NCBI GenBank assembly: GCA_046757725.1
Contig: JBHHYU010000006.1
Location: 13,841 to 77,840 of the forward strand
DNA: 64,000 bases
DNA from: Candidatus Binatia bacterium
GTDB lineage: Bacteria > Desulfobacterota > Binatia > UBA9968
Direction: 5' to 3'
Positions 52,490 through 62,151 of the stretch are shown one piece after another. The translations under genes were made by a program, and so were the position numbers. Numbering within the stretch: the first letter of the stretch is position 1; each line of letters opens with the position of its first letter. The notes under the pieces are model-generated. The model was not told the origin of the DNA, made no database searches, and was given only the letters and a program-made list of their open reading frames with translations.

Positions 52490-53605
52490 TTACCAAAGCT
52501 GTGACTTCCCTCCTTGCACCCACCAATTGTCGCGTGCACGGATCTCCATTTCATATCCCTTCCCCGATTGCCGTGCCAGCTCATAACACCTCTTGGCCAA
52601 GGCTAAATCAATGATGCCTTGGCCGCCCTGGTTCTTGTAAAGAATGATTTGCCTGTCGTCCGTTCTCCCCTTGGCATTTCCAGCGAGCACATCCGCGATG
52701 TCCACCACCCTGTCCCAGGTGATGACCCCCTCCTGCACGGGCCAGTAGATATCTCCTTGCTGGGAATCTATCGCTTGCTCCTTAGAGAGGGCCACAATGA
52801 AGCTACATCTCCTGAGGGTCCCATCATCGATCTCTCTGCGCGGGGCGGAGATGTTTCCGCTCTTGACCAATTCGATATTGCTGCCGATGACTGAAATTAT
52901 ATACTGCCCTTCTTCGAGCCAGGAACCGTCAATGACAGGCACATTGGTATTCGTCATGCACAGGATAATATCGACATCTTTGGCCGCCAACCGAGGATCA
53001 TCCACGGTTTCAATCGGCACACCGGTGGTCTCACCCATCCTCGTGGCAAATGCCTCTCTATGGGATGGCGTTGGGCTGTAGACCTTCGCGCTCTCAATCT
53101 TTCTCAGCTCTGTTAGGCCTAGAAAGGTTGAGCTGGCTTGGTGACCTGAGCCAAAAATACCAACCCGTGTAGCATCGCGGCGCGCAAAGTGATCAAGGCC
53201 GGCCAAGCTGGTAGCAGGAGTGCGCAAGTCCGCCGTACCCCCTACGTGTCGGGGGCGATGAGCCATTATTCCCAAAAGAGTTCCGCTATCGACATCGTAA
53301 ATCAGCGCAAGCTCAGTCTGGTCGGGATTATAAGGAGGTCTTTTCTGGACAGTCCCTTGTATGGCCTTGCGATGGAGGGCCACCTGGGCTCCGATAGCGC
53401 CGTAACTCGACGATCCGCCCGCGTAGATATTCAGAACGGTATCATAGGGTACTTCTCCCATATTTCGGTGGATGTGTAGCCTCTTGCGGGGAGCATTGGT
53501 CCCTAGCGGACTGGAAATGTCCTTCAGGGCGCTTTCAGCAATGCTGACGGCTTCTTTCAATGGAATAAGTTCATCTACATCATCTGAATGAAAAAAAAGC
53601 GCCAT
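52490..53605 (-). CDS. ornithine cyclodeaminase / mu-crystallin family protein
   Basis: Rossmann GIFGSGHQA and overall OCD-family layout. Confidence 0.7.
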   Translation of the reverse strand: MALFFHSDDVDELIPLKEAVSIAESALKDISSPLGTNAPRKRLHIHRNMGEVPYDTVLNIYAGGSSSYGAIGAQVALHRKAIQGTVQKRPPYNPDQTELALIYDVDSGTLLGIMAHRPRHVGGTADLRTPATSLAGLDHFARRDATRVGIFGSGHQASSTFLGLTELRKIESAKVYSPTPSHREAFATRMGETTGVPIETVDDPRLAAKDVDIILCMTNTNVPVIDGSWLEEGQYIISVIGSNIELVKSGNISAPRREIDDGTLRRCSFIVALSKEQAIDSQQGDIYWPVQEGVITWDRVVDIADVLAGNAKGRTDDRQIILYKNQGGQGIIDLALAKRCYELARQSGKGYEMEIRARDNWWVQGGKSQLW

Positions 53606-54030
53606 AAATCAACTCCTCCCTCTATGCCGGCCTAAGTTTTAACAGCGAGCAGCAGACTGATTTCTGCTCGATCCGCTCTGCCTTTCTAAAAAACAATGAA
53701 AAGGGACAGAACAGGAAAAGAACTATCGTACCACTGTTTGGTCGTCAAGCTTGGTTAACTTCCAAAAGCGCTAGCGGAGTGGGCCGGGAGGGGAGACGGC
53801 CGTCTCTTAAAATTTAAACTTTGCCAGCAACACACAGCACCTGTTTGAGTCGCAACATCAGACTAAATAGACTCCCTCTTACCTATTCCTGCTGAACCTG
53901 CCGCACAGCACATTGAGCAAGGGGTTACATGGTGATTCAGGAGAATTGACCGGCTTGAGCCCACTTCAGTCCATAGCAGTGGGACACCCCTTTGGTGGGA
54001 GTGCAGATGCGGGTAAGAAGCGTCCGCCCC

Positions 54031-54061
54031 AAAAAAGGGGACGGGTATGGCTCCCGTCCCC
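54031..54061 (-). terminator. rho-independent terminator for the minus-strand gene ending at 54090
   Basis: On the minus strand: GGGGACGG-gagccata-CCGTCCCC followed by TTTTTT. Confidence 0.6.
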
Positions 54062-54089
54062 TTCTCGATCTCAAAAAGAGAACTACTTA

Positions 54090-54377
54090 TTATTTTACAC
54101 TGACTTTGCTAGCGGTCTTGCGATCATCGTCCGCGTCATAGGTTGCCTTGATTGATTGGCCTTCCTTGATGTCGGAGCGGTCGTCCACGCCCTTTAAATC
54201 GGTGCGGCTACCGCTAATCCGGATCTTCACCGACTTGCACGGGTTCTTAACAGTAATGTAACGGCCATCCCGCTCGATTTTCACCACCTTTCCTTTGATC
54301 TCGGCGGCTACGAGCCAGCCTGCTACGGAAAGGGTAAAAAGGGTCATTAAAACAAGGCTTAATAGTTTCTTACTCAT
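54090..54377 (-). CDS. small secreted or periplasmic protein (signal peptide plus a ~70-aa Lys/Asp-rich beta domain)
   Basis: N-terminal LLSLVLMTLFTLSVAGWLVAA signal-like segment. Own terminator downstream. Confidence 0.6.
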   Translation of the reverse strand: MSKKLLSLVLMTLFTLSVAGWLVAAEIKGKVVKIERDGRYITVKNPCKSVKIRISGSRTDLKGVDDRSDIKEGQSIKATYDADDDRKTASKVSVK

Positions 54378-54653
54378 CTTTTCTCACCTCCTTAATCTAT
54401 TCAGCATTAGGGCACCTTGTTGGATAGCAGAATTTACGTTTTTACCTATGCAGTTGCCAAGGTTTAAAAGCCTCTGCCCAAACGTGTGATTTGGATAGAA
54501 CCGCAGGGGGGGCCACACCTTCCGCCCTGCCACGTTAGAGAGTTAAAGGGTTGAAAAATCGAAAAACTCTTGTGCCCGTAGACCCTTCAACTTTTTCAGG
54601 CCCCGAGGTATCTTCCAGAGGGACAAAAATATTAGCAATCCGCGGGTGGTTCT

Positions 54654-54885
54654 ATGAACTACCCCGTAGCAAGCTGCTGGGTATCAAAAGGAACGGACTC
54701 ATGTCAACACATTGCTATCGCGCCAAGAGCCTACTCCGCCGAAGCAGGCGCTTCCGCTGCGAAGGCCGGGCGCCAAGGGCGCAAAGAAAAACATGACCCT
54801 ATTTCTCCGAACTTGGCGTGCTTTGCGTCTTTGCGGGAGCCATCGTTTTGCCATTTCCGTAAGCCACATTTTAACCGATTGCTGC
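54654..54885. repeat. 232-bp element, inverted copy 1 (partner at 59254..59485)
   Basis: The reverse complement aligns to 59254..59485 with about 11 differences. A ~165-bp core differs by a single base. Confidence 0.85.
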
Positions 54886-54902
54886 AAACAGATGAGCTGT
54901 TT

Positions 54903-55886
54903 CTACCGGTTATTCCACCCCTCACCAAACGCTTCGGCCTCCCTAAATCCTTCTTCCCTCCATTCATCAATGAGTTCGCGGACAGGAATTTTACGATGCA
55001 TCAGCCCTTTCATGAGGCTCTTATACAGAGGCGCAGATTCCGTCTGGGCGTTAACGGGGCATACGGTTAGACAAATCTTGCAACCTTCGTAGTCCTCGAA
55101 ATAGGGGCGGCAAGCCGGGGTATCCACATGCCAGCGAACGGTACCAAAAACCTCTTGTTTCTTGGGAACAATGGCATTGCCGGGACAGAAATTAGTACAC
55201 GCATTGCAGCGCAAGCACAAATCATCAAAACCGTAATCGGCAGGCGCCGGTTCGGCAACGAGCGGTATCTCAGTTGTCACAACACCAAGACGCACACTGG
55301 GGCCAAATTTCTTGGTAATCAAGGACCCATGGCGACCCAACTCGCCTAATCCGGCCTTCCAGGCAATGGGTATAAAGAGAGCGGGCCCTTCATTCGGATA
55401 GCCCACGGCATGGTAACCAAACGAACGAATAAATTGCGCCAACCGCACGGATAGATCCGAGAGCCTGTAGTAAACCCTATGAACTTCCATTTGGGACAAC
55501 GGACCCAACCGTTTCATCTCATCGAAATCCATGTGAATGGCGAAGGAGATCCCACGGTTGTGACCTTGAGGGGGTGCAGTACCGCGGACAAAGTCGAACC
55601 GATCCACGGGGGCAATACCGACGAGATCGGCACCCAGCTGCAGGGCGGTCTCCTTTACGAATCGTGTTACTCCGTCCCAATCCTTCGTTTCCAGTTTTTC
55701 GGGATTGAGGGGGCCATCGTAAAGACCGCGTTGCGCATGCTCGGCCCTCATGAACATGAAGCGACGGGTTTGCGGGTGCCGCTTCGCCTTCGTGGCTTCA
55801 CCGCGCTTTTTATCTGGGAACGGCGACTGCTTGATGGCCGGTTCTCTACCAGGTGTGAAGATGATACCTTTAGGCTCCATGGGCAC
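54903..55886 (-). CDS. QueG/RdhA-superfamily protein with two [4Fe-4S] ferredoxin motifs (epoxyqueuosine-reductase-like)
   Basis: CLRCNACTNFCPGNAI and CKICLTVCPVN motifs. N-terminal VKETALQLGADLVGIAPVD resembles the QueG N-terminus. The start appears to be GTG. Confidence 0.6.
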   Translation of the reverse strand: MPMEPKGIIFTPGREPAIKQSPFPDKKRGEATKAKRHPQTRRFMFMRAEHAQRGLYDGPLNPEKLETKDWDGVTRFVKETALQLGADLVGIAPVDRFDFVRGTAPPQGHNRGISFAIHMDFDEMKRLGPLSQMEVHRVYYRLSDLSVRLAQFIRSFGYHAVGYPNEGPALFIPIAWKAGLGELGRHGSLITKKFGPSVRLGVVTTEIPLVAEPAPADYGFDDLCLRCNACTNFCPGNAIVPKKQEVFGTVRWHVDTPACRPYFEDYEGCKICLTVCPVNAQTESAPLYKSLMKGLMHRKIPVRELIDEWREEGFREAEAFGEGWNNR

Positions 55887-56178
55887 AATCCCCTGAACTA
55901 CGAACTAACTTGAGTAATGTATTTCAAATGAAACTCATATTCAACGTGAATTTATGAGCTTTAAGGGGCGGACCGGCCCTTATTCCCAATTTAGGACAGA
56001 GAATAGTCGGTACTCCGGTCTTATTTTCAGCTTCAGTGCGGGTTTACGGAAGAGATACTGAGCCGGGTACTCCCGCCCGTGACCGGCGTAAGGTCCTCAA
56101 GCAGCCCGTTGGGGGCTCTCGCAAGGTTCCTGATCGGAACCTTCAAGGACGTTGCAAAAGAAACCCCGCACAGCTAGG

Positions 56179-56197
56179 TTGACAGAGCACCTGTCAA
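56179..56197. promoter_or_regulatory. perfect dyad TTGACAG-N5-CTGTCAA in the divergent promoter region of the cassette
   Basis: 7-bp inverted arms read directly from the sequence. Lies between the divergent starts at 55886 and 56354. Confidence 0.3.
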
Positions 56198-56353
56198 TTC
56201 GATAACGTCTGGTTCAAACCACCGGTTCGAAAGGCAGCCTTGTCTTGCCCCACTAAAGCTTGATTCTGCTAAACGTAGCCTGGTGGACGGTCATTTGCAG
56301 AAATTCCCTGCTCTTTACGGGCTTATCTGCCATAACGAGGTTTTCATTATCCT

Positions 56354-57883
56354 ATGTGTGGAATAGCGACATACGTCGGATGTCAGTCGAGTACGGTCAC
56401 CAACATGATGGACGGTATAGCTGGACGTCTCCAGCACCGAGGGCCCGACGATTCTGGGGTCTTCCACGTCGGTTCGACGGTGCTCGCTCATCGGCGCTTG
56501 TCGATCATCGACGTCGCCGGGGGAAAACAACCTATATACAACGAAAACGGCGATCTGGCCCTTGTTTGCAACGGTGAGATCTACAACCATGAGCGGCTGC
56601 GCCATGAGTTGCGGGACCGACACCGCTTCCGCACACACTCCGATTCCGAGGTTATTCTTCACCTATACGAAGATTTGGGCCCGGCATTCGTGACAAAGCT
56701 TGACGGCATGTTCGCCTTCGTGTTGAGCGACGGCGAGGAGGTCTTCGCAGCGCGTGATCCCCTCGGTATCAAGCCGCTGTATATGGGAAGCGATGCCGAG
56801 GGTGGACTGTGGTTTGCCTCCGAACTCAAGGCGCTGATCGATGTGTGTGTAGATATCAAGGAGGTCCCACCAGGATTTGCGTACACTCGCGGCACCCTGG
56901 AGCAATGGTATCATCCATTGTGGCGGGAGCCGCCGGATCGGTCTTTGATGCTCGACCCAAGTTCAATCCGGGATAGGCTTGAATCCGCGGTTGTCAAGCG
57001 GTTGATGAGCGAGGTTCCAGTGGGGGTGTTCCTTTCCGGCGGGCTCGACTCGAGCATCATCGCTGCGCTGGTGCGCCAGCACGTGGATGAGCTGCACAGC
57101 TTCTCGGTCGGATTGGAGGGGTCACCGGACATCCTCGCCGCCAGGAAGGTGGCCGAACATCTCCGCACGCGTCACCACGAGTACGTTTACACCTCTGGAG
57201 AGGTCATCCGTGTGCTCGAAGAGGTGATCGCCCATCTTGAGTCCTACGATCCCGCGTTATTGCGCAGCGCTGTGCCGTGTTACTTTGTCTCCAAGATCGC
57301 CTCGGATCACGTCAAGGTCGTGCTGAGCGGAGAGGGCTCCGATGAGGCCTTCGCAGGCTACCTTTACTTCGACAGCGTCGGTGATCCGGCTGCCCTCCAT
57401 CGCGAGTGCGTGCGATTACTGACCGGCCTGCACAACATGAACCTGCAGCGAGTCGACCGCATGACGATGGCTCATTCCATCGAGGGTCGCGTTCCCTTCC
57501 TCGACATTGACTTTCTCGATACCGTAATGGCAATCGATCCGGGTGAAAAACTTCACCGGCGCGGTCGCCCGGAAAAATGGCTACTGCGCAGCGCCGTGAC
57601 CGACCTTCTGCCGGAGTCCATTCTGTGGCGCACGAAACAGGAGTTCGCCCAGGGATGCGGTTCCGAATGGACCCTGCGGGAGTATTGTGCAGAGGTAGTC
57701 AGCGAAGGCGACTGGGCCCAGGCCACCCGGAGCTACCCCGTCGACGCGCCTCGGACAAAGGAAGAGTTCCACTACCGACGCATCTTCGAGGAGATCTTTC
57801 CGGGGGAGACATCGCGTCGGACGGTAGGGCGCTGGCGCGGTGCATTTACTTCACCAAGTGAACAGGAGGAATACAATGCCTAA
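56354..57883 (+). CDS. asparagine synthetase B-family glutamine amidotransferase
   Basis: N-terminal MCGI class-II GATase nucleophile and PP-loop SGGLDSS. Confidence 0.85.
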   Translation: MCGIATYVGCQSSTVTNMMDGIAGRLQHRGPDDSGVFHVGSTVLAHRRLSIIDVAGGKQPIYNENGDLALVCNGEIYNHERLRHELRDRHRFRTHSDSEVILHLYEDLGPAFVTKLDGMFAFVLSDGEEVFAARDPLGIKPLYMGSDAEGGLWFASELKALIDVCVDIKEVPPGFAYTRGTLEQWYHPLWREPPDRSLMLDPSSIRDRLESAVVKRLMSEVPVGVFLSGGLDSSIIAALVRQHVDELHSFSVGLEGSPDILAARKVAEHLRTRHHEYVYTSGEVIRVLEEVIAHLESYDPALLRSAVPCYFVSKIASDHVKVVLSGEGSDEAFAGYLYFDSVGDPAALHRECVRLLTGLHNMNLQRVDRMTMAHSIEGRVPFLDIDFLDTVMAIDPGEKLHRRGRPEKWLLRSAVTDLLPESILWRTKQEFAQGCGSEWTLREYCAEVVSEGDWAQATRSYPVDAPRTKEEFHYRRIFEEIFPGETSRRTVGRWRGAFTSPSEQEEYNA

Positions 57884-59156
57884 CGCCAATACACTATCAC
57901 CTACAAACGAAACCAACGGTCTCCGAACATACAGCGAGACCGTCGCTAAAGGACTATACAACAAATATATTGGTGGTCTGTTTGGAAAACACGACAACGT
58001 ACGGACCTACTGGGAGGACCAGCTAACCCGGCTCGCCCTGCGCCCGTTCGTTAATCGGATTGCCCAAGCCTGCCGCGCCGAAAACCGCGGCGTGCGCATC
58101 TTGGACCTGGGATGCGGTGCGGGGCAGGGATACGAATTGCTGACGCGTATCAACCAGAAAGACCTGAATATGGACACCGATTTGCCCTATGTGCTGCCCC
58201 CAGAAGAGATAGGTCAGTTTCTCGGCGTTGACATAAGCGATGCCATGGTTGAACAGGGCCGGCAGAACTACTCCGGCGTTTCGAACGTCGCCTTCGAGCA
58301 AGCGGATCTGTCCGAGGGACTCGGGATGGTCAAGTCGGAGTCACCCTTCGACATCTACTTCTCGTCGTACGGCGCCTTGTCTCATTTAGAAACCGCCGCC
58401 CTCCGTCAATGCTTGACTGATATCCTCTACCACGCGAGACCGGGAGCACTGGTGGTATTAGATATGGTTGGACGCTACTCGCCGGAGTGGCCGCTCTATT
58501 GGAGCACGGATAATGAAGTCGAGGACATGCACCCATACTCGATGAGTTACATGTACGACGAACAGGAGCGGCGGAAAGGCGAGATAGAGCAATTTCCCCT
58601 CCGCTTCTGGAGTAGTGTTGACGTACGTCGTATGTGCGACGAACTGGGTCAGCATCAAGGTGTCTCCTTGAAGCCGATCGAGTTCTTAGATCGCTCGATA
58701 TTCGTAGGGCGCCACACCGACACACGGGAATACCAGTGTAGCCTCCCGCGCCTCCGCAGGGTCGTAAACAAGCTGTACGAACTAAACGTCCGAACGCATA
58801 TCGAACAGCTCCGATTGGACTATCGGCCCTCGGATGGTCCCGAGGAACTCAACCGTTTCTTTAGTGAATTGGCCATGAGCTGGACGAAGGTCGTTGACTT
58901 TACGCTGAACCGGATTCAGGGCGACCGCATGGACCTCGTAGCCCTCGATGGCTGGCGCACGTTCGCTCCCGCTTTGCAGACGGCCCTGATGACAATGGAC
59001 CGAGTGATCGACAGCGTGTCCTGGATCAGTCTTGGCGATGTCCGCGCCAACATCCTGGAACCGCAGCTGGCCTACGTGCTGCAACGTCTCGAGTATACCA
59101 TGCAGCACGGATGGGGCTGTGGGCACGGTCTGGTCGTTGTGTTACAAGTGGAATAG
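57876..59156 (+). CDS. SAM-dependent methyltransferase with a ~250-aa C-terminal extension
   Basis: Motif I VRILDLGCGAGQG. The ATG at 57876 overlaps the asnB-like stop by 8 nt and has AGGAGG upstream. Confidence 0.7.
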   Translation: MPNANTLSPTNETNGLRTYSETVAKGLYNKYIGGLFGKHDNVRTYWEDQLTRLALRPFVNRIAQACRAENRGVRILDLGCGAGQGYELLTRINQKDLNMDTDLPYVLPPEEIGQFLGVDISDAMVEQGRQNYSGVSNVAFEQADLSEGLGMVKSESPFDIYFSSYGALSHLETAALRQCLTDILYHARPGALVVLDMVGRYSPEWPLYWSTDNEVEDMHPYSMSYMYDEQERRKGEIEQFPLRFWSSVDVRRMCDELGQHQGVSLKPIEFLDRSIFVGRHTDTREYQCSLPRLRRVVNKLYELNVRTHIEQLRLDYRPSDGPEELNRFFSELAMSWTKVVDFTLNRIQGDRMDLVALDGWRTFAPALQTALMTMDRVIDSVSWISLGDVRANILEPQLAYVLQRLEYTMQHGWGCGHGLVVVLQVE

Positions 59157-59253
59157 ATTCCGGGAAGCGTATTTATTGAAGCGTGAACCATATAAGGAGG
59201 TACCGAGGTGGCTAAGCTGTACTTTCATTCAATCGCTACGGGTTAATTCCCCG

Positions 59254-59485
59254 CAGCTATCGGTTAAGATGTGGCTTACGGAAACGGCAAAATGATGACT
59301 TGCGCAAAGGCGCAAAGCACGCCAAGTTCGGAGAAATAGGGGTCATGTTTTTCTTTGCGCCCTTGGCGCCCGGCCTTCGCAGCGGAAGCGCCTGCTTCGG
59401 CGGAGTAGGCTCTTGGCGCGATAGCAATGTGTTGACATGAGTCCGTTCCTTTTGATACCCCGCAGCTTGCTGCGGGGTAGTTCAT
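59254..59485. repeat. 232-bp element, inverted copy 2
   Basis: See copy 1. Contains a perfect hairpin CCCCGCAGC-ttg-GCTGCGGGG. Confidence 0.85.
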
Positions 59486-59562
59486 TTCGATTCGAATCTA
59501 CGGCGATGGGTTCCCTTACGAGCAAATATGTGTTATCCAGAAGCGTAAAAGGGAATCCTGTG

Positions 59563-60075
59563 ATGGGCAAACCGAGTTCAGATAGAATACTACCCAATGG
59601 GCTGGTTTTGTTCGTGGTTTTATTGTCATGGATATCATACGGCTATGCAGAGGCACCCGCTACTAAGGAAACCGCGGAACAATGGGAGGAGATAGCCTCT
59701 TTAAGGTATGAGGCTGCCATAGGCCACGAGTCACGGGCCGAACAGAAGGAAGCGCTTGGGAGTGAAACCCCTGGTGTGGCTCTTAGCGCTGCCGGTGATG
59801 AGAAGGTATCCGCTTCAGGCGGTTACAAAACCGCAAGCGAGCATTGGAAAAAAGCAGCTGAGGCGTACAAGGCGACGGGTGATTTAGATAATGCAAAAAA
59901 AGCCCGATACAACTCCGATCTGGCTTGGGAGTCGGCTAAACGTACGCTTCGCGAGGCAGCGGAATTGCATAAGAGGGCCGCAAAGGTGTTCGAAGACGCG
60001 AACAAACTGGGCGAGAAAATAGACGCGCTCAAAAAGGTGGCTAGTGATCTCGAAGCCTTACTGAACATGAAATAA
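59563..60075 (+). CDS. hypothetical secreted or membrane-anchored helical protein
   Basis: Signal-like MGKPSSDRILPNGLVLFVVLLSWISYGYAEAP followed by an Ala/Lys/Glu-rich helical region. Start chosen downstream of the repeat. Confidence 0.5.
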   Translation: MGKPSSDRILPNGLVLFVVLLSWISYGYAEAPATKETAEQWEEIASLRYEAAIGHESRAEQKEALGSETPGVALSAAGDEKVSASGGYKTASEHWKKAAEAYKATGDLDNAKKARYNSDLAWESAKRTLREAAELHKRAAKVFEDANKLGEKIDALKKVASDLEALLNMK

Positions 60076-60189
60076 TTGGAGTTAATTAGCAGTTCAAAGG
60101 TTTTAAAAGCGGCGGTCATTGGTGACAAGTCAATACCAACCGCCAGACAGCTTGACAAATCGTGCCCTTAAGATCTAATAGGGGCCAGT

Positions 60190-62151
60190 ATGGCAGCCAA
60201 ATGGGGGCTTTTCCTCTGTAATTGTCACCGCACACTTTCCCTCGATCCTGAGCGGCTTGTCCTTCCTACCGTCCCCAGCGTTCTCTCATTCGCAAGGGAT
60301 CCAGAGACTGAGGCTCCTAAATTTGCCTCAAGTGTCCAGAGTGAGGGACCCGATCAGGTACTGATCAGTTGCTGTGCCGGTCCCGGTCTGTTTAATCAGG
60401 CGATCAATAATGGCACGGCACCGTCTACGAAGCTGCGATTTGTTGATCTAAAAGGCCTCTGTTTTCAGGTCCATTCGGATCCCGCAGAGGCCCATGCCAA
60501 AGCAAACCGGTTGTTGTGTGCCGCGATGGAAACCGCCGAAGCGGAGACACAGGTGACCTATAATCCCTTGAATGTCGGGGGTCGTATCGTTATTGCGACC
60601 GATTCGACCCAAGGGATACAGTTCGCAGAAAAACTCCGAGACATCGCCCAGACAAGTTTTATTATCGCCCCGGATGTCCTGCCGGATCTGTCCCCGACGC
60701 TGGAGGTGACCAGGGGTCGGGTTCTGGGTGTCCAGGGCTCCTTGGGCGGCTTTCGGGTGACCGTTGAGACTAATGACGGGCCTAAACGGGGTCATCGGGA
60801 CCTGCAGGCGGATCAATTCGTATCCATATCAGAGAACGACACACCGGGTATTAAACGGCGTACGGGCTGTCATTTGCTTGTCAAGCCGGACAGGGCTGAC
60901 CTCGACGAACTTGCAATGCGCGTCCGTGACCTCATCGGTGACTTTGTCAAGCCGGTTCAGGTGGCATATAACGGCGATATCTGTGCGGGAGGGACGGCAG
61001 ACCAGAAGGGGTGTGGAATCTGCATAACCTCGTGTCCGTACGACGCCATCAGCCGCGACCCGCAAAATCATTTTCGGATGCAGGTTGATCACATGGCTTG
61101 CGAGGGGTGCGGCGCCTGTGCCTCGGCTTGTCCCACAAGCTCCCTGCGCTTTACGGAGCCCTCCCCGCATGAGCTCTATACGCGGCTCGCCGCTCTGCTC
61201 GGGCACAGACCAGGGCACAGTAACGGGGAACGTTTGACTGTTCTCTTCCATTGCGGCGAGCAGGGCAGGCGTGTACTCGAAGAGGCAGGCCGGCGGCCAC
61301 TGCCATACCCGGCGAGCGTGTTTCCCGTCGAGGTGCCGTGTCTGCGCTATGTTTCCGAGGCCAACATCCTGGCCGCTTTCCGCTTGGGTGCGGCCGGAGT
61401 CGGTCTCCTGGGCTGCGAGACATGCCAGCACGGGGAGCGGGAATTACTCTATCAGAAAGTTGACTTCTGCCGTCTGACTCTGGATGCCTTTGGCATGGGC
61501 TCTGAACGGTTGCGCCTCATGACTGCAGACCATGGTACGGAGGTGGAAGTCGTCACAGCCCTATCGAGCTTTGCCGAGAAGCTGGATAAGGCGCCTATCC
61601 ACTGGGACGGCAAACGCATCGATTCCTGGGGTAACCGGGAGGTAGTAGCCGACGCGATTCGGACCTTTATCGAACAGACAGGCCGGGAGCCCGGACGCAG
61701 GGCCCTCGATCCCTCGCAGCCCTTTGCTCTTGCGGATGTTGAGAGCTCTGGTTGTACCCTGTGTCGCTCCTGCGTGAATGTTTGTCCGGTACATGCCTTC
61801 AGCATCGAGGAGGGAAAAGGCTCATTGAGGTCTAAGGCCATTGCCTGTGTGGCCTGTGGTCTCTGCGAGAAGGTCTGCCCTGAAAACGTAATCACGCTTC
61901 GGCGGGAAATTTTCTTTGAACGGGACGCCCTCGATTACCAGACAGTAGTAGAAGACCCAATGGTCTCGTGTGGCAAGTGCGGGAAGCCCTATATCAACAA
62001 AAAGGCTCTGGAGACCATTGAGACTCGGCTGTTTTCACTTGAGTCGTTGATGGATACTTTTAGCGGTAATCGGCGAAAACTGCTCAGATTGTGTCCTGAC
62101 TGCCGTGCCGCAGAAGCCATGCTGGAAGTGGAGAAAGGCTGGAAACCGTGA
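60190..62151 (+). CDS. polyferredoxin with an embedded MvhD/FlpD-like domain (two 2x[4Fe-4S] modules plus a C-terminal CxxC...CxxC)
   Basis: Four CxxCxxCxxxCP motifs (CGICITSCP, CEGCGACASACP, CTLCRSCVNVCP, CVACGLCEKVCP). MvhD-like block VLFHCGEQG...VPCLRYVSEANILAAFRLGAAGVGLLGCETCQH. Confidence 0.75.
   Translation: MAAKWGLFLCNCHRTLSLDPERLVLPTVPSVLSFARDPETEAPKFASSVQSEGPDQVLISCCAGPGLFNQAINNGTAPSTKLRFVDLKGLCFQVHSDPAEAHAKANRLLCAAMETAEAETQVTYNPLNVGGRIVIATDSTQGIQFAEKLRDIAQTSFIIAPDVLPDLSPTLEVTRGRVLGVQGSLGGFRVTVETNDGPKRGHRDLQADQFVSISENDTPGIKRRTGCHLLVKPDRADLDELAMRVRDLIGDFVKPVQVAYNGDICAGGTADQKGCGICITSCPYDAISRDPQNHFRMQVDHMACEGCGACASACPTSSLRFTEPSPHELYTRLAALLGHRPGHSNGERLTVLFHCGEQGRRVLEEAGRRPLPYPASVFPVEVPCLRYVSEANILAAFRLGAAGVGLLGCETCQHGERELLYQKVDFCRLTLDAFGMGSERLRLMTADHGTEVEVVTALSSFAEKLDKAPIHWDGKRIDSWGNREVVADAIRTFIEQTGREPGRRALDPSQPFALADVESSGCTLCRSCVNVCPVHAFSIEEGKGSLRSKAIACVACGLCEKVCPENVITLRREIFFERDALDYQTVVEDPMVSCGKCGKPYINKKALETIETRLFSLESLMDTFSGNRRKLLRLCPDCRAAEAMLEVEKGWKP

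What the first reader, a model, noticed from the sequence alone, without database searches (positions are those of the whole stretch)
54654..59485. Two ~95% identical 232-bp inverted repeats bracket a 4.4-kb three-gene cassette
Direct reading shows that 54654-54885 is the reverse complement of 59254-59485. There are about 11 differences in 232 bp, and a central core of about 165 bp differs by a single base. Each copy lies just 3' of a cassette gene: 17 bp after the stop of the minus-strand QueG-like gene, and about 100 bp after the stop of the plus-strand methyltransferase. The cassette is transcribed divergently from its centre, so both transcription units would carry the same-sense version of the element in their 3' ends. 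The element is GC-rich and full of local dyads. Examples are CCCCGCAGC-ttg-GCTGCGGGG (perfect in copy 2, degraded in copy 1), tandem CTTTGCGC units and GGCGCCAAGGGCGC. No transposase, integrase or recombinase ORF is inside or adjacent. It is therefore not a canonical IS or Tn. Candidate explanations: (i) a shared structured 3'-UTR, terminator or sRNA element; (ii) ends of a non-autonomous mobile cassette; (iii) long inverted repeats that allow RecA-mediated inversion of the 4.4-kb segment. The near-identity of the core against more diverged flanks suggests either recent gene conversion or selection on the core.
Basis: seen in the sequence. Interest (0 to 1): 0.75.

Follow-up and report, generated by a model that had tools for sequence, protein, structure and literature searches.

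The report
Two decayed IS200-type miniature transposon copies
The two inverted repeats are worn-out copies of a small transposase-less mobile element of the IS200/IS605 kind, an ordinary sort of selfish DNA, and they sit on the two edges of a three-gene block that has lost the neighbours it has in related genomes.

Summary
Window 54654-54885 is the reverse complement of 59253-59485 (95.3% over 233 nt, with a 146-nt stretch at 99%).

It is not a new RNA element and not a special cassette bracket. Each arm is a copy of a roughly 250-290 bp non-autonomous element of the IS200/IS605 family, of the PATE type.
- One end, CTTTTGATACCCCGCAGCTTGCTGCGGGGTAGTTCAT, matches exactly in 60 metagenome contigs.
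- There it pairs with a second conserved hairpin end around very different interiors, giving elements of 85 to 292 bp.
- In several contigs a Y1 transposase gene (Pfam Y1_Tnp, NCBIfam transpos_IS200) lies next to this end; in one (L128) both ends bracket it as a 523-bp element.
- Flanks show no target duplication, and the second hairpin covaries.
- The interior of the window copies is a different dispersed repeat, common in Binatia and 'Deltaproteobacteria' MAGs.

Both window copies are damaged at their left end, and there is no transposase in the window.

In eight contigs from related genomes the three genes have different neighbours (an ABC transporter, a phosphatase) and no element. Homology stops at the two copies, so they mark rearrangement breakpoints.

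The 3'-UTR/sRNA reading and the composite-transposon reading are not supported. Occasional RecA inversion is possible but untested.

The parts
54654..54906 (-). Copy 1: a truncated non-autonomous IS200/IS605-type element (read LE to RE on the minus strand). It keeps the right end and the cargo. The left-end hairpin is missing.
   Evidence: The alignment to full-length relatives L121 and L153 runs from the right end to ...AAACAGCTCATCTG and stops at the Fer4 stop codon. About 89% identity to L121 over shared positions.
54654..54690 (-). Right end (RE) of copy 1: CTTTTGATACCCAGCAGCTTGCTACGGGGTAGTTCAT. The hairpin at 54662-54681 carries two substitutions that create a C/T mismatch and a G/T wobble.
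   Evidence: Pattern scan. Sequence.
54729..54770 (+). A 42-nt inserted module (GCCTACTCCGCCGAAGCAGGCGCTTCCGCTGCGAAGGCCGGG) shared by both window copies and by L001, but absent from L121, L153, L114 and L061.
54807..54827 (+). Most conserved block of the cargo (CCGAACTTGGCGTGCTTTGCG). It belongs to a separate dispersed repeat family of Binatia and 'Deltaproteobacteria' MAGs.
   Evidence: 105 genome stretches carry it. blast and printed alignment.
54903..55880 (-). Gene for a 4Fe-4S dicluster (QueG / reductive-dehalogenase-like) protein, 325 aa, full length.
   Evidence: Pfam Fer4 families. The C-terminus aligns to the end of homologues. The exact sequence is NCBI MFQ5682124.1.
56354..57883 (+). 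Asparagine-synthase-like amidotransferase gene.
   Evidence: Pfam Asn_synthase and GATase_7. Conserved next to the methyltransferase in all relatives.
57876..59156 (+). Class I SAM-dependent methyltransferase gene, 426 aa.
   Evidence: Pfam Methyltransf_25/31. P0003 is 100% identical over 426 aa, from a Candidatus Binatia MAG.
59228..59258 (+). Left end (LE) of copy 2: TTCAATCGCTACGGGTTAATTCCCCGCAGCT. The 3' arm of the main hairpin and about 35 nt behind it were deleted between two GCAGC repeats.
   Evidence: Compared with L121 and L128 left ends. Pattern hit at 59236-59256.
59228..59485 (+). Copy 2: a non-autonomous IS200/IS605-type element with both ends (read LE to RE on the plus strand). 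The 5 nt at 59223-59227 are unassigned.
   Evidence: Homology with relative L172 stops at 59221-59222, just before this element.
59449..59485 (+). Right end (RE) of copy 2, intact. The hairpin at 59456-59479 also scores as terminator-like on the plus strand.
   Evidence: Exact pattern match. Terminator scan. DNA fold.

Best explanation
Each arm of the inverted repeat is a copy of a small, transposase-less mobile element derived from an IS200/IS605-family insertion sequence, that is, a palindrome-associated transposable element (PATE). Such elements are cut out and re-inserted as single-stranded DNA by a Y1 (HUH) transposase supplied from elsewhere. The transposase recognises a hairpin near each end, and insertion leaves no target duplication.

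The window copies belong to a sub-lineage whose interior is a captured copy of another dispersed repeat plus a 42-nt insertion. That shared history, possibly with later gene conversion, explains their near-identity. Both copies have lost part of their left end, and copy 1 also has a damaged right hairpin, so they are probably immobile fossils.

They lie on the two borders of a conserved three-gene block whose ancestral neighbours are gone. I infer that insertion was followed by recombination or deletion at the copies. Their position next to gene 3' ends and their inverted arrangement are by-products of this history, not a designed bracket.

Shown: family membership, the ends, the associated transposase in other contigs, the absence of target duplication, the synteny breaks. 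Inferred: trans-mobilisation in this genome, and the role of the copies in the rearrangement.
For: (1) The 29-nt right-end pattern occurs in 60 metagenome contigs.
- It sits in front of many unrelated interiors.
- In 24 distinct complete copies it is paired with a conserved second end, ...GCAGCAAGCTGCGGGGAATTRGACCCGTAGAGATTRAA.
- Element sizes are 85-87, 154, 197-220, 247-250 and 292 bp, plus one 523-bp autonomous copy.

(2) In L128 both ends bracket a 146-aa ORF, and in L118 the same right end and a related left-end hairpin bracket a 147-aa ORF.
- Both ORFs hit Pfam Y1_Tnp (E = 3e-36 and 6e-35) and NCBIfam transpos_IS200 (130 bits, cut-off 55).
- The stop codon of the ORF overlaps the right end.
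- The L118 copy interrupts a long ORF.

(3) Over about 50 distinct flanks, conservation stops sharply at ...GTTCAT(T) and at TTNAATC... No direct repeats flank the element.

(4) The left-end hairpin is kept by compensatory changes: 4 of 9 pairs, 14 cells, 0 of 500 shuffles, and it collapses when the register is slid.

(5) L121 and L153 are full-length relatives of the window element and have both ends.

(6) The cargo block occurs in 105 genome stretches, mostly Binatia and 'Deltaproteobacteria' MAGs, including at least 24 contigs of one MAG.

(7) Synteny evidence.
- Six contigs (L173, L174, L175, L177, L179, L180) keep Fer4 next to asnB-MTase; in L178 an IS3-type insertion lies between Fer4 and asnB. 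L174 and L177-L180 have an ABC/OpuAC transporter after MTase, and L173-L175 and L177-L179 have LMWPc/glyoxalase after Fer4; L173, L175 and L180 each end before one of those two flanks is fully seen. None has the element in about 110 kb.
- Homology with L172 (91% methyltransferase) ends at 59221-59222, just before the left end of copy 2.
- Homology with L180 ends at the Fer4 stop codon.

(8) A short-read contig identical to the window breaks inside the repeat, as expected for a multi-copy sequence.
Against: - No transposase gene lies in the 64-kb window, and the rest of the source genome could not be read. Copy number and a cognate tnpA in this organism are therefore unknown.
- No true empty site was found for either window copy. 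Because the flanks are rearranged, insertion is inferred from family behaviour, not seen directly.
- The conserved TTNAA next to the left end could be either target or element; this was not resolved.
- The differences between the two copies are unevenly spread: none in about 118 nt, nine in the last 89. Simple decay does not predict that, so gene conversion is invoked without a direct test.
- The right-end hairpin of copy 2 does look like an intrinsic terminator, so a secondary host function is not excluded.
Confidence: 0.85

Rival explanations
1. The repeat is a host-functional, strand-specific 3'-UTR element (a terminator, mRNA stabiliser or sRNA) shared by the two divergent transcription units.
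For: Both copies are read in the same sense by the gene upstream of them. The right-end hairpin of copy 2, followed by GTTCATTTCG, passes a terminator-like scan. Both strands of the element fold better than shuffles, z = -3.3 and -2.9.
Against: - No Rfam hit, even at E <= 1.
- The hairpin of copy 1 is broken by two non-compensatory changes and is not picked up by the terminator scan.
- Across family members with two scorable neighbours the element lies in both orientations: 5 against 4 between tandem genes, 4 convergent, 1 divergent (crude ORF calls).
- The same ends bracket a transposase gene and unrelated cargos.
- Syntenic relatives lack the element downstream of the same genes.
Confidence: 0.08
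2. The two copies are the ends of a composite, non-autonomous mobile cassette that moved the three genes as one 4.8-kb unit.
For: The three-gene block sits in a neighbourhood different from that in the eight related contigs examined, and both edges of the block coincide with the copies.
Against: - A Y1 transposase needs a left end and a right end on the same strand. Here both left ends face inward on opposite strands, so no LE...RE pair encloses the genes.
- Both inward ends are defective.
- The block shows no base-composition anomaly.
- No second copy of the unit was seen in any collection.
Confidence: 0.05
3. The long inverted repeats serve as a recombination switch that inverts the 4.4-kb segment.
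For: 232 bp at 95% identity, including 146 nt at 99%, is ample for RecA-dependent recombination. The identical core could reflect gene conversion between the arms.
Against: Inversion would not change what is expressed, because each transcription unit keeps its own promoter region in the 55887-56353 spacer. No site-specific recombinase is nearby. Only one orientation is seen, in the window and in the identical Logan contig fragment. Occasional inversion as an accident is likely; a regulatory role has no support.
Confidence: 0.03
4. The elements are REPIN-like doublets maintained by a domesticated REP-associated tyrosine transposase (RAYT), not by an IS200-type transposase.
For: The minimal 85-nt elements are two related palindromes in inverted orientation with a short spacer. 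A GTAG follows the right-end palindrome. There are weak matches to the RAYT model.
Against: - The associated transposases score 130 bits on transpos_IS200 (cut-off 55) but only 20-28 bits on REP_Tyr_transpos (cut-off 80).
- The transposase gene occurs in several contexts and once inside another gene, like an active IS.
- The closest plasmid-borne relatives are annotated as IS200/IS605 tnpA.
Confidence: 0.04

Closest known systems
PATEs (palindrome-associated transposable elements), the transposase-less derivatives of IS200/IS605-type elements, first defined in Haloquadratum walsbyi (PMC3119063) and noted in Geobacillus stearothermophilus (PMC10055086)
   Same: Too short to encode a transposase. 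Palindromes close to both termini. No target duplication. Extreme termini are not inverted repeats of each other. The ends are shared with an element that carries a Y1 transposase. They are often nested with other small repeats.
   Different: This family comes from uncultured soil and sediment bacteria (Binatia and others). Its autonomous partner is very small (523 bp, tnpA only). The cargo of the window copies is a copy of another dispersed repeat, not an omega-RNA or IS remnant. The two subterminal hairpins resemble each other.
IS200 / IS608 / ISDra2 (IS200/IS605 family, Y1 HUH transposase, single-strand 'peel and paste' transposition)
   Same: The transposase found next to the same ends passes the Pfam Y1_Tnp and NCBIfam transpos_IS200 thresholds. 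The hairpins are subterminal. Short conserved motifs sit at the boundaries (TTNAA at the left, TTCAT at the right), like the target and cleavage motifs of IS608.
   Different: The window copies carry no tnpA or tnpB. The cleavage sites and target motif were not determined. Activity has not been shown.
REP / REPIN elements mobilised by RAYTs (PMC3116915, PMC3337134, PMC8266576)
   Same: GC-rich extragenic palindromes. The minimal elements are doublets of two palindromes. They are intergenic, high in copy number, and use a related HUH Y1 enzyme class.
   Different: The associated enzyme is IS200-type, not RAYT-type. The elements carry long and variable cargo. The tnpA behaves as a multi-context IS.
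Classical MITEs with terminal inverted repeats and target duplications (Correia, ERIC, RUP, Nezha)
   Same: Small, non-coding, dispersed and intergenic. They can sit in 3' UTRs and at rearrangement breakpoints.
   Different: Those are mobilised by DDE transposases and have TIRs and target-site duplications. Neither feature is seen here.

Membership tests
PATE / non-autonomous IS200/IS605 derivative | Palindromes (hairpins) close to both termini | tested here: met
   The family has an RE hairpin CCCCGCAGC-NN-GCTGCGGGG and an LE hairpin. Window copy 2 has the RE intact and the LE partly deleted. Copy 1 has only a damaged RE.
PATE / non-autonomous IS200/IS605 derivative | Ends shared with an autonomous element encoding a Y1 (HUH) transposase | tested here: met
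   In L128 and L118 a tnpA lies between an LE hairpin and this RE; in L128 both ends match the family's, while the L118 LE lacks the outer small hairpin. Y1_Tnp E = 3e-36 and 6e-35; transpos_IS200 130 bits against a cut-off of 55.
PATE / non-autonomous IS200/IS605 derivative | No target-site duplication and no terminal inverted repeats at the extreme ends | tested here: met
   24 complete copies have unrelated 10-nt flanks. The termini TTNAATC... and ...GTTCAT are not inverted copies of each other.
PATE / non-autonomous IS200/IS605 derivative | Too short to encode a transposase | tested here: met
   85-292 bp. The ORFs inside the window copies have no Pfam hit.
PATE / non-autonomous IS200/IS605 derivative | Hairpin structure, rather than sequence, is conserved | tested here: met
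   LE hairpin: 4 of 9 pairs have double changes, 0 of 500 shuffles reach the observed score, and slid registers give 21-54% paired against 83%. The RE could not be tested because it was the search pattern.
PATE / non-autonomous IS200/IS605 derivative | Insertion 3' of a specific short target motif next to the LE | tested here: inconclusive
   TTNAA is invariant in 24 of 24 copies at the LE boundary. Without an empty site it cannot be assigned to the target or to the element.
PATE / non-autonomous IS200/IS605 derivative | Multiple dispersed copies and a cognate tnpA in the same genome | not testable with these tools
   Only 64 kb of the source MAG is available, with two copies and no tnpA. A short-read contig breaking inside the repeat hints at more copies.
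REPIN / RAYT system | Associated transposase belongs to the RAYT (TnpA-REP) clade | tested here: not met
   REP_Tyr_transpos scores 20 and 28 bits against a cut-off of 80. The IS200 model is far above its threshold.
REPIN / RAYT system | Single-copy domesticated transposase flanked by REPs | tested here: not met
   tnpA with these ends occurs in several unrelated contexts. Two versions are 46% identical. One copy interrupts a long ORF.
Composite transposon | Two element copies that provide a functional outer end pair around the cargo genes, plus a transposase | tested here: not met
   Both left ends face inward on opposite strands and are defective. There is no transposase in the window.
Structured 3'-UTR RNA / sRNA family | Fixed orientation relative to the upstream gene, and a match to a known RNA family | tested here: not met
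   Both orientations occur among family members. There are zero Rfam matches at gathering score or at E <= 1.

The most novel reading that the evidence does not exclude
Pairs of these miniature IS200-type elements may act as portable homology that lets host recombination, or an unrecognised activity of the Y1 transposase on inverted ends, relocate whole gene blocks. On this reading the Fer4-asnB-methyltransferase block was moved as a unit into a new neighbourhood. That would be a mode of cassette mobility not described for IS200/IS605 elements. The evidence does not exclude it, because both edges of the conserved block coincide with the copies and the outer flanks could not be compared with relatives.
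Probability: 0.06. Interest if true: 0.65.

Novelty: new member of a known kind. Interest (0 to 1): 0.3.

Why it matters
The practical value is mainly for annotation. Strings such as ...PRSLLRGSSF... or MNYPAASCGVSKG... in predicted proteins of Binatia and other soil MAGs are read-through of this element's hairpin end, and short-read assemblies break inside it. Recognising the family would remove spurious ORFs and false N-terminal extensions, and it explains contig ends.

Biologically, it documents an undescribed, widespread PATE family with a very compact 523-bp IS200-type partner and interchangeable, chimeric cargo. It also gives one clear case where such copies coincide with both breakpoints of a synteny block, and shows that the methyltransferase operon here has lost the ABC transporter genes that follow it in relatives. 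It opens no long-standing question.

Tried and rejected
- Rfam at gathering score on the whole window, and at E <= 1 on 53600-59700: nothing.
- Protein search with the ORF read through the element: only two weak hits. These nevertheless gave the first related copies, L001 and L002.
- Exact look-ups of the window's asnB product and of P0003: not on record.
- tblastn of the element-associated TnpA against the window: no hit better than E = 0.18.
- Looked for the ancestral neighbours (OpuA-type ABC transporter, LMWPc, glyoxalase and others) anywhere in the window, to test a simple inversion between the two copies. Only paralogue-level ABC hits at 22-37% identity were found far from either copy (3.8, 13 and 23 kb in window coordinates), so a single inversion does not explain the flanks.
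- Looked for the element in nine syntenic or related loci: none.
- Base composition of the block against its flanks: no anomaly.
- I first thought that the Fer4 gene had been truncated and took its stop codon from the element. Rejected: the protein ends at the same position as its homologues.
- Scan of viral contigs for the right end: 0 hits.
- Literature search for Binatia together with IS200/MITE terms: none of the eight papers listed mentions Binatia.
- Orientation and context statistics rest on crude longest-ORF gene calls and 14 informative loci. The shortage of divergent-promoter sites (1 of 14) is not significant.
Full report
**Observation**

The inverted repeat is real. The repeat finder gives arms 54654-54799 / 59340-59485 (146 nt, 99%) and 54797-54885 / 59253-59341 (89 nt, 91%). 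blastn gives 95.3% over 233 nt with E = 7e-104, and no further copy in the 64-kb window.

The genes between the arms are:
- a 4Fe-4S (QueG / reductive-dehalogenase-like) gene, 54903-55880, minus strand;
- an asparagine-synthase-like gene, 56354-57883, plus strand;
- a class I SAM methyltransferase gene, 57876-59156, plus strand.

The window comes from an 85.6-kb contig of a Candidatus Binatia MAG, carrying proteins MFQ5682119-128.

**What the repeat is made of**

The unit is a mosaic of two things.

The first part is its gene-proximal two-thirds: ATCGCGCCAAG...CCGAACTTGGCGTGCTTTGCG...AACCGA. This belongs to a dispersed repeat.
- A 21-nt block of it occurs in 105 stretches of species-representative genomes.
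- These are mostly Binatia and 'Deltaproteobacteria' MAGs, with at least 24 contigs in one MAG. A few are Syntrophobacteraceae, Acidobacteria, Verrucomicrobiia and Chloroflexota bins.

The second part is the outer 37 nt. Read on the strand that I call element-sense, it is CTTTTGATACCCCGCAGCTTGCTGCGGGGTAGTTCAT.
- This is a separate module. An exact 29-nt pattern from it is present in 60 metagenome contigs.
- There it precedes many unrelated interiors.
- In the 24 distinct copies that are complete, it is paired at a distance of 85-292 bp with a second conserved end, TTNAATCNCTRCGGGTNNAATTCCCCGCAGCTTGCTGCG.
- The shortest elements (85-87 bp) are just the two ends.

**Link to a transposase**

In L128 the same two ends bracket a 146-aa ORF, and in L118 the same right end and a related left-end hairpin bracket a 147-aa ORF.
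- Both ORFs hit Pfam Y1_Tnp (E = 3e-36 and 6e-35).
- Both hit NCBIfam transpos_IS200 at 130 bits (cut-off 55). The RAYT model reaches only 20-28 bits (cut-off 80).
- The stop codon of tnpA overlaps the TCAAAAG next to the hairpin, so that end is the right end (RE) and the other is the left end (LE).
- The whole L128 element is only about 523 bp.
- The L118 copy sits inside a long ORF, whose reading frame resumes after the element.
- The two transposases are only 46% identical yet keep the same RE hairpin.
- The closest plasmid-borne relatives (about 69% identity) are annotated as IS200/IS605 tnpA.

**Signature of the family**

- Over about 50 distinct flanks, conservation ends abruptly at ...GTTCAT(T) on one side and at TTNAATC... 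on the other. The 10-nt flanks of complete copies share no direct repeat.
- The LE hairpin varies among sub-families by compensatory changes (GCAGC/GCTGC, ACAGC/GCTGT, ACGGC/GCCGT, GTAGC/GCTAC, TGAGC/GCTCA). That is 4 of 9 pairs with double changes and 14 cells. No shuffle out of 500 reaches the observed score, and the signal disappears when the register is slid.

These are the features that define IS200/IS605 elements and their transposase-less derivatives, the PATEs: palindromes near the termini, no terminal inverted repeats, no target duplication, and too short to code (PMC3119063; also PMC10055086).

**Anatomy of the two window copies**

L121 and L153 are full-length relatives (about 250 bp, about 89% identical over shared positions) with both ends.

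Copy 2 lies in element-sense on the plus strand.
- Its LE is at 59228-59258 and its RE at 59449-59485.
- The RE is intact.
- The LE has lost the 3' arm of its main hairpin, plus about 35 nt, by a deletion between two GCAGC repeats.

Copy 1 lies in element-sense on the minus strand.
- Its RE (54654-54690) has two hairpin-breaking substitutions.
- Its homology to L121 runs inward to about 54906.
- The LE hairpin is missing. The junction ...CGGTAG|AAACAGCTC... shows a GGTA microhomology between the end of the Fer4 gene and the element.
- The Fer4 protein itself is full length.

Both copies share a 42-nt insertion (54729-54770 and 59369-59410). L121, L153, L114 and L061 lack it, and one other metagenome fragment (L001) has it. 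So the two copies belong to one sub-lineage. Their near-identical core is a sign of recent common origin or gene conversion, not of selection on a core that relatives do not even possess.

No tnpA is present in the window.

**Context**

The three-gene block is conserved, with Fer4 divergent from asnB-MTase, in L173, L174, L175, L177, L179 and L180 (Fer4 78-91% identical at the protein level). In L178 an IS3-type insertion lies between Fer4 and asnB.
- An ABC/OpuAC transporter follows the methyltransferase in L174, L177, L178, L179 and L180; L173 ends inside an ABC-like gene at that position and L175 ends before it.
- Fer4 is followed by an 81-aa gene, LMWPc and glyoxalase genes in L177-L179, and by LMWPc in L173-L175; L180 ends just past Fer4 but its 3' flank matches those of L173, L174 and L177.
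- L168 and L172 also have the ABC gene after the methyltransferase.
- None of these loci, about 110 kb in all, contains the element.

Nucleotide homology with the window covers only about 54904-55946 and 56342-59162.
- With L172 (91% methyltransferase) homology continues for 65 bp past the stop codon and ends at 59221-59222, just before the LE of copy 2.
- The ancestral neighbours are nowhere in the window.

Hence both copies lie on the two edges of a synteny block that has lost both of its neighbourhoods. A single inversion between the two arms cannot produce that. Deletions or inversions involving further copies elsewhere, or relocation of the block, can. Which of these happened could not be tested, because the context look-ups were exhausted.

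**Rivals**

- A strand-specific RNA or terminator role is not supported.
  - There are no Rfam matches.
  - Family members lie in both orientations relative to neighbouring genes (crude gene calls).
  - The hairpin of copy 1 is broken.
  - The RE hairpin of copy 2 does look terminator-like, so an incidental effect on the methyltransferase transcript is possible.
- Composite transposition is mechanistically implausible for a single-strand Y1 transposase, because the two left ends face inward on opposite strands and both are defective.
- Inversion by homologous recombination is possible as an accident, but it has no evident regulatory consequence and no evidence.

**Verdict**

This is an ordinary kind of object: a PATE-type miniature element of the IS200/IS605 family. 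It belongs to a family that appears to be undescribed and is widespread in soil and sediment metagenomes. Here it is present as two decayed copies that mark rearrangement breakpoints.

Noticed in passing
L003-L107 (genome-contig loci), e.g. L103:250-460, L022:3700-3900: At least two larger repeat families of Binatia and 'Deltaproteobacteria' MAGs share the ~37-nt block CCGAACTTGGCGTGCTTTGCGYCTTKGCG. 'Family A' (~190 nt) starts near TAGATTCTAAC..AAATGTTCAAC and ends ..CAAATATGTTTGGCTAG. 'Family B' is longer. A 27-nt module, GCATGTCCTGAGCGAAGTCGAAGGGAC, is nested in some copies in either orientation. Their own mobilisation mechanism was not worked out.
   Followed up: partly
window 59157-62151, compared with L172, L168, L174, L177-L180: In all sampled relatives asnB-methyltransferase is followed by an ABC ATPase and a fused permease/OpuAC gene, which looks like one operon, perhaps for a compatible solute. 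The window genome has lost these. A Pfam-less gene (about 59566-60075) and a FlpD/4Fe-4S gene follow instead.
   Followed up: partly
window 53606-54653: About 1 kb left of copy 1 has no convincing gene: only ORFs of 64-95 aa, with no Pfam hit better than E = 0.035. The NCBI protein numbering leaves room for one annotated gene here (MFQ5682123).
   Followed up: partly
window 59437-60075 (+): The longest ORF starts inside the right end of copy 2 (MSPFLLIPRSLLRGSSF...). This N-terminal extension is read-through of the hairpin. The real start is probably near 59566 (MGKPSS..., signal-peptide-like). Neither start that I tried matched a database protein exactly.
   Followed up: partly
L118:4266-4800: An autonomous tnpA-bearing copy with the same right end is inserted inside a long ORF (the 790-aa and 303-aa pieces are in frame across the element). 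The ORF looks like a restriction/helicase-type gene. This is evidence of recent activity of the family.
   Followed up: partly
L178:8001-9163: In one relative an IS3-type element (HTH_Tnp_1 plus rve genes) sits in the spacer between asnB and the Fer4 gene, so this locus has been hit by mobile elements more than once.
   Followed up: no
L176 (Logan SRR29324609 contig), 1597-1689: A short-read contig identical to window 54812-55000 ends inside the repeat at ...CGCCAAGTT. This is the typical assembly break at a multi-copy sequence. Many JGI contigs likewise end 110-120 nt into the element.
   Followed up: yes
L134:789-1081 compared with L114:2053-2301 (reverse strand): Two sister elements differ by a nested ~80-nt insertion of yet another hairpin-rich repeat (..GACCGAAGGGAGAAATCTTTCTTAGATCCTTCGCGCTCGCTCAGGATGACGGG..). 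It replaces the centre of the cargo, so small repeats insert into one another here.
   Followed up: no
window 55887-56353, compared with L173:3436-4402 and L174:6177-9000: The divergent spacer between the Fer4 gene and asnB is 467 bp here. In relatives it holds extra genes: a 107-aa ORF in one, and a prepilin-type N_methyl protein plus a UbiD-family decarboxylase in another.
   Followed up: no
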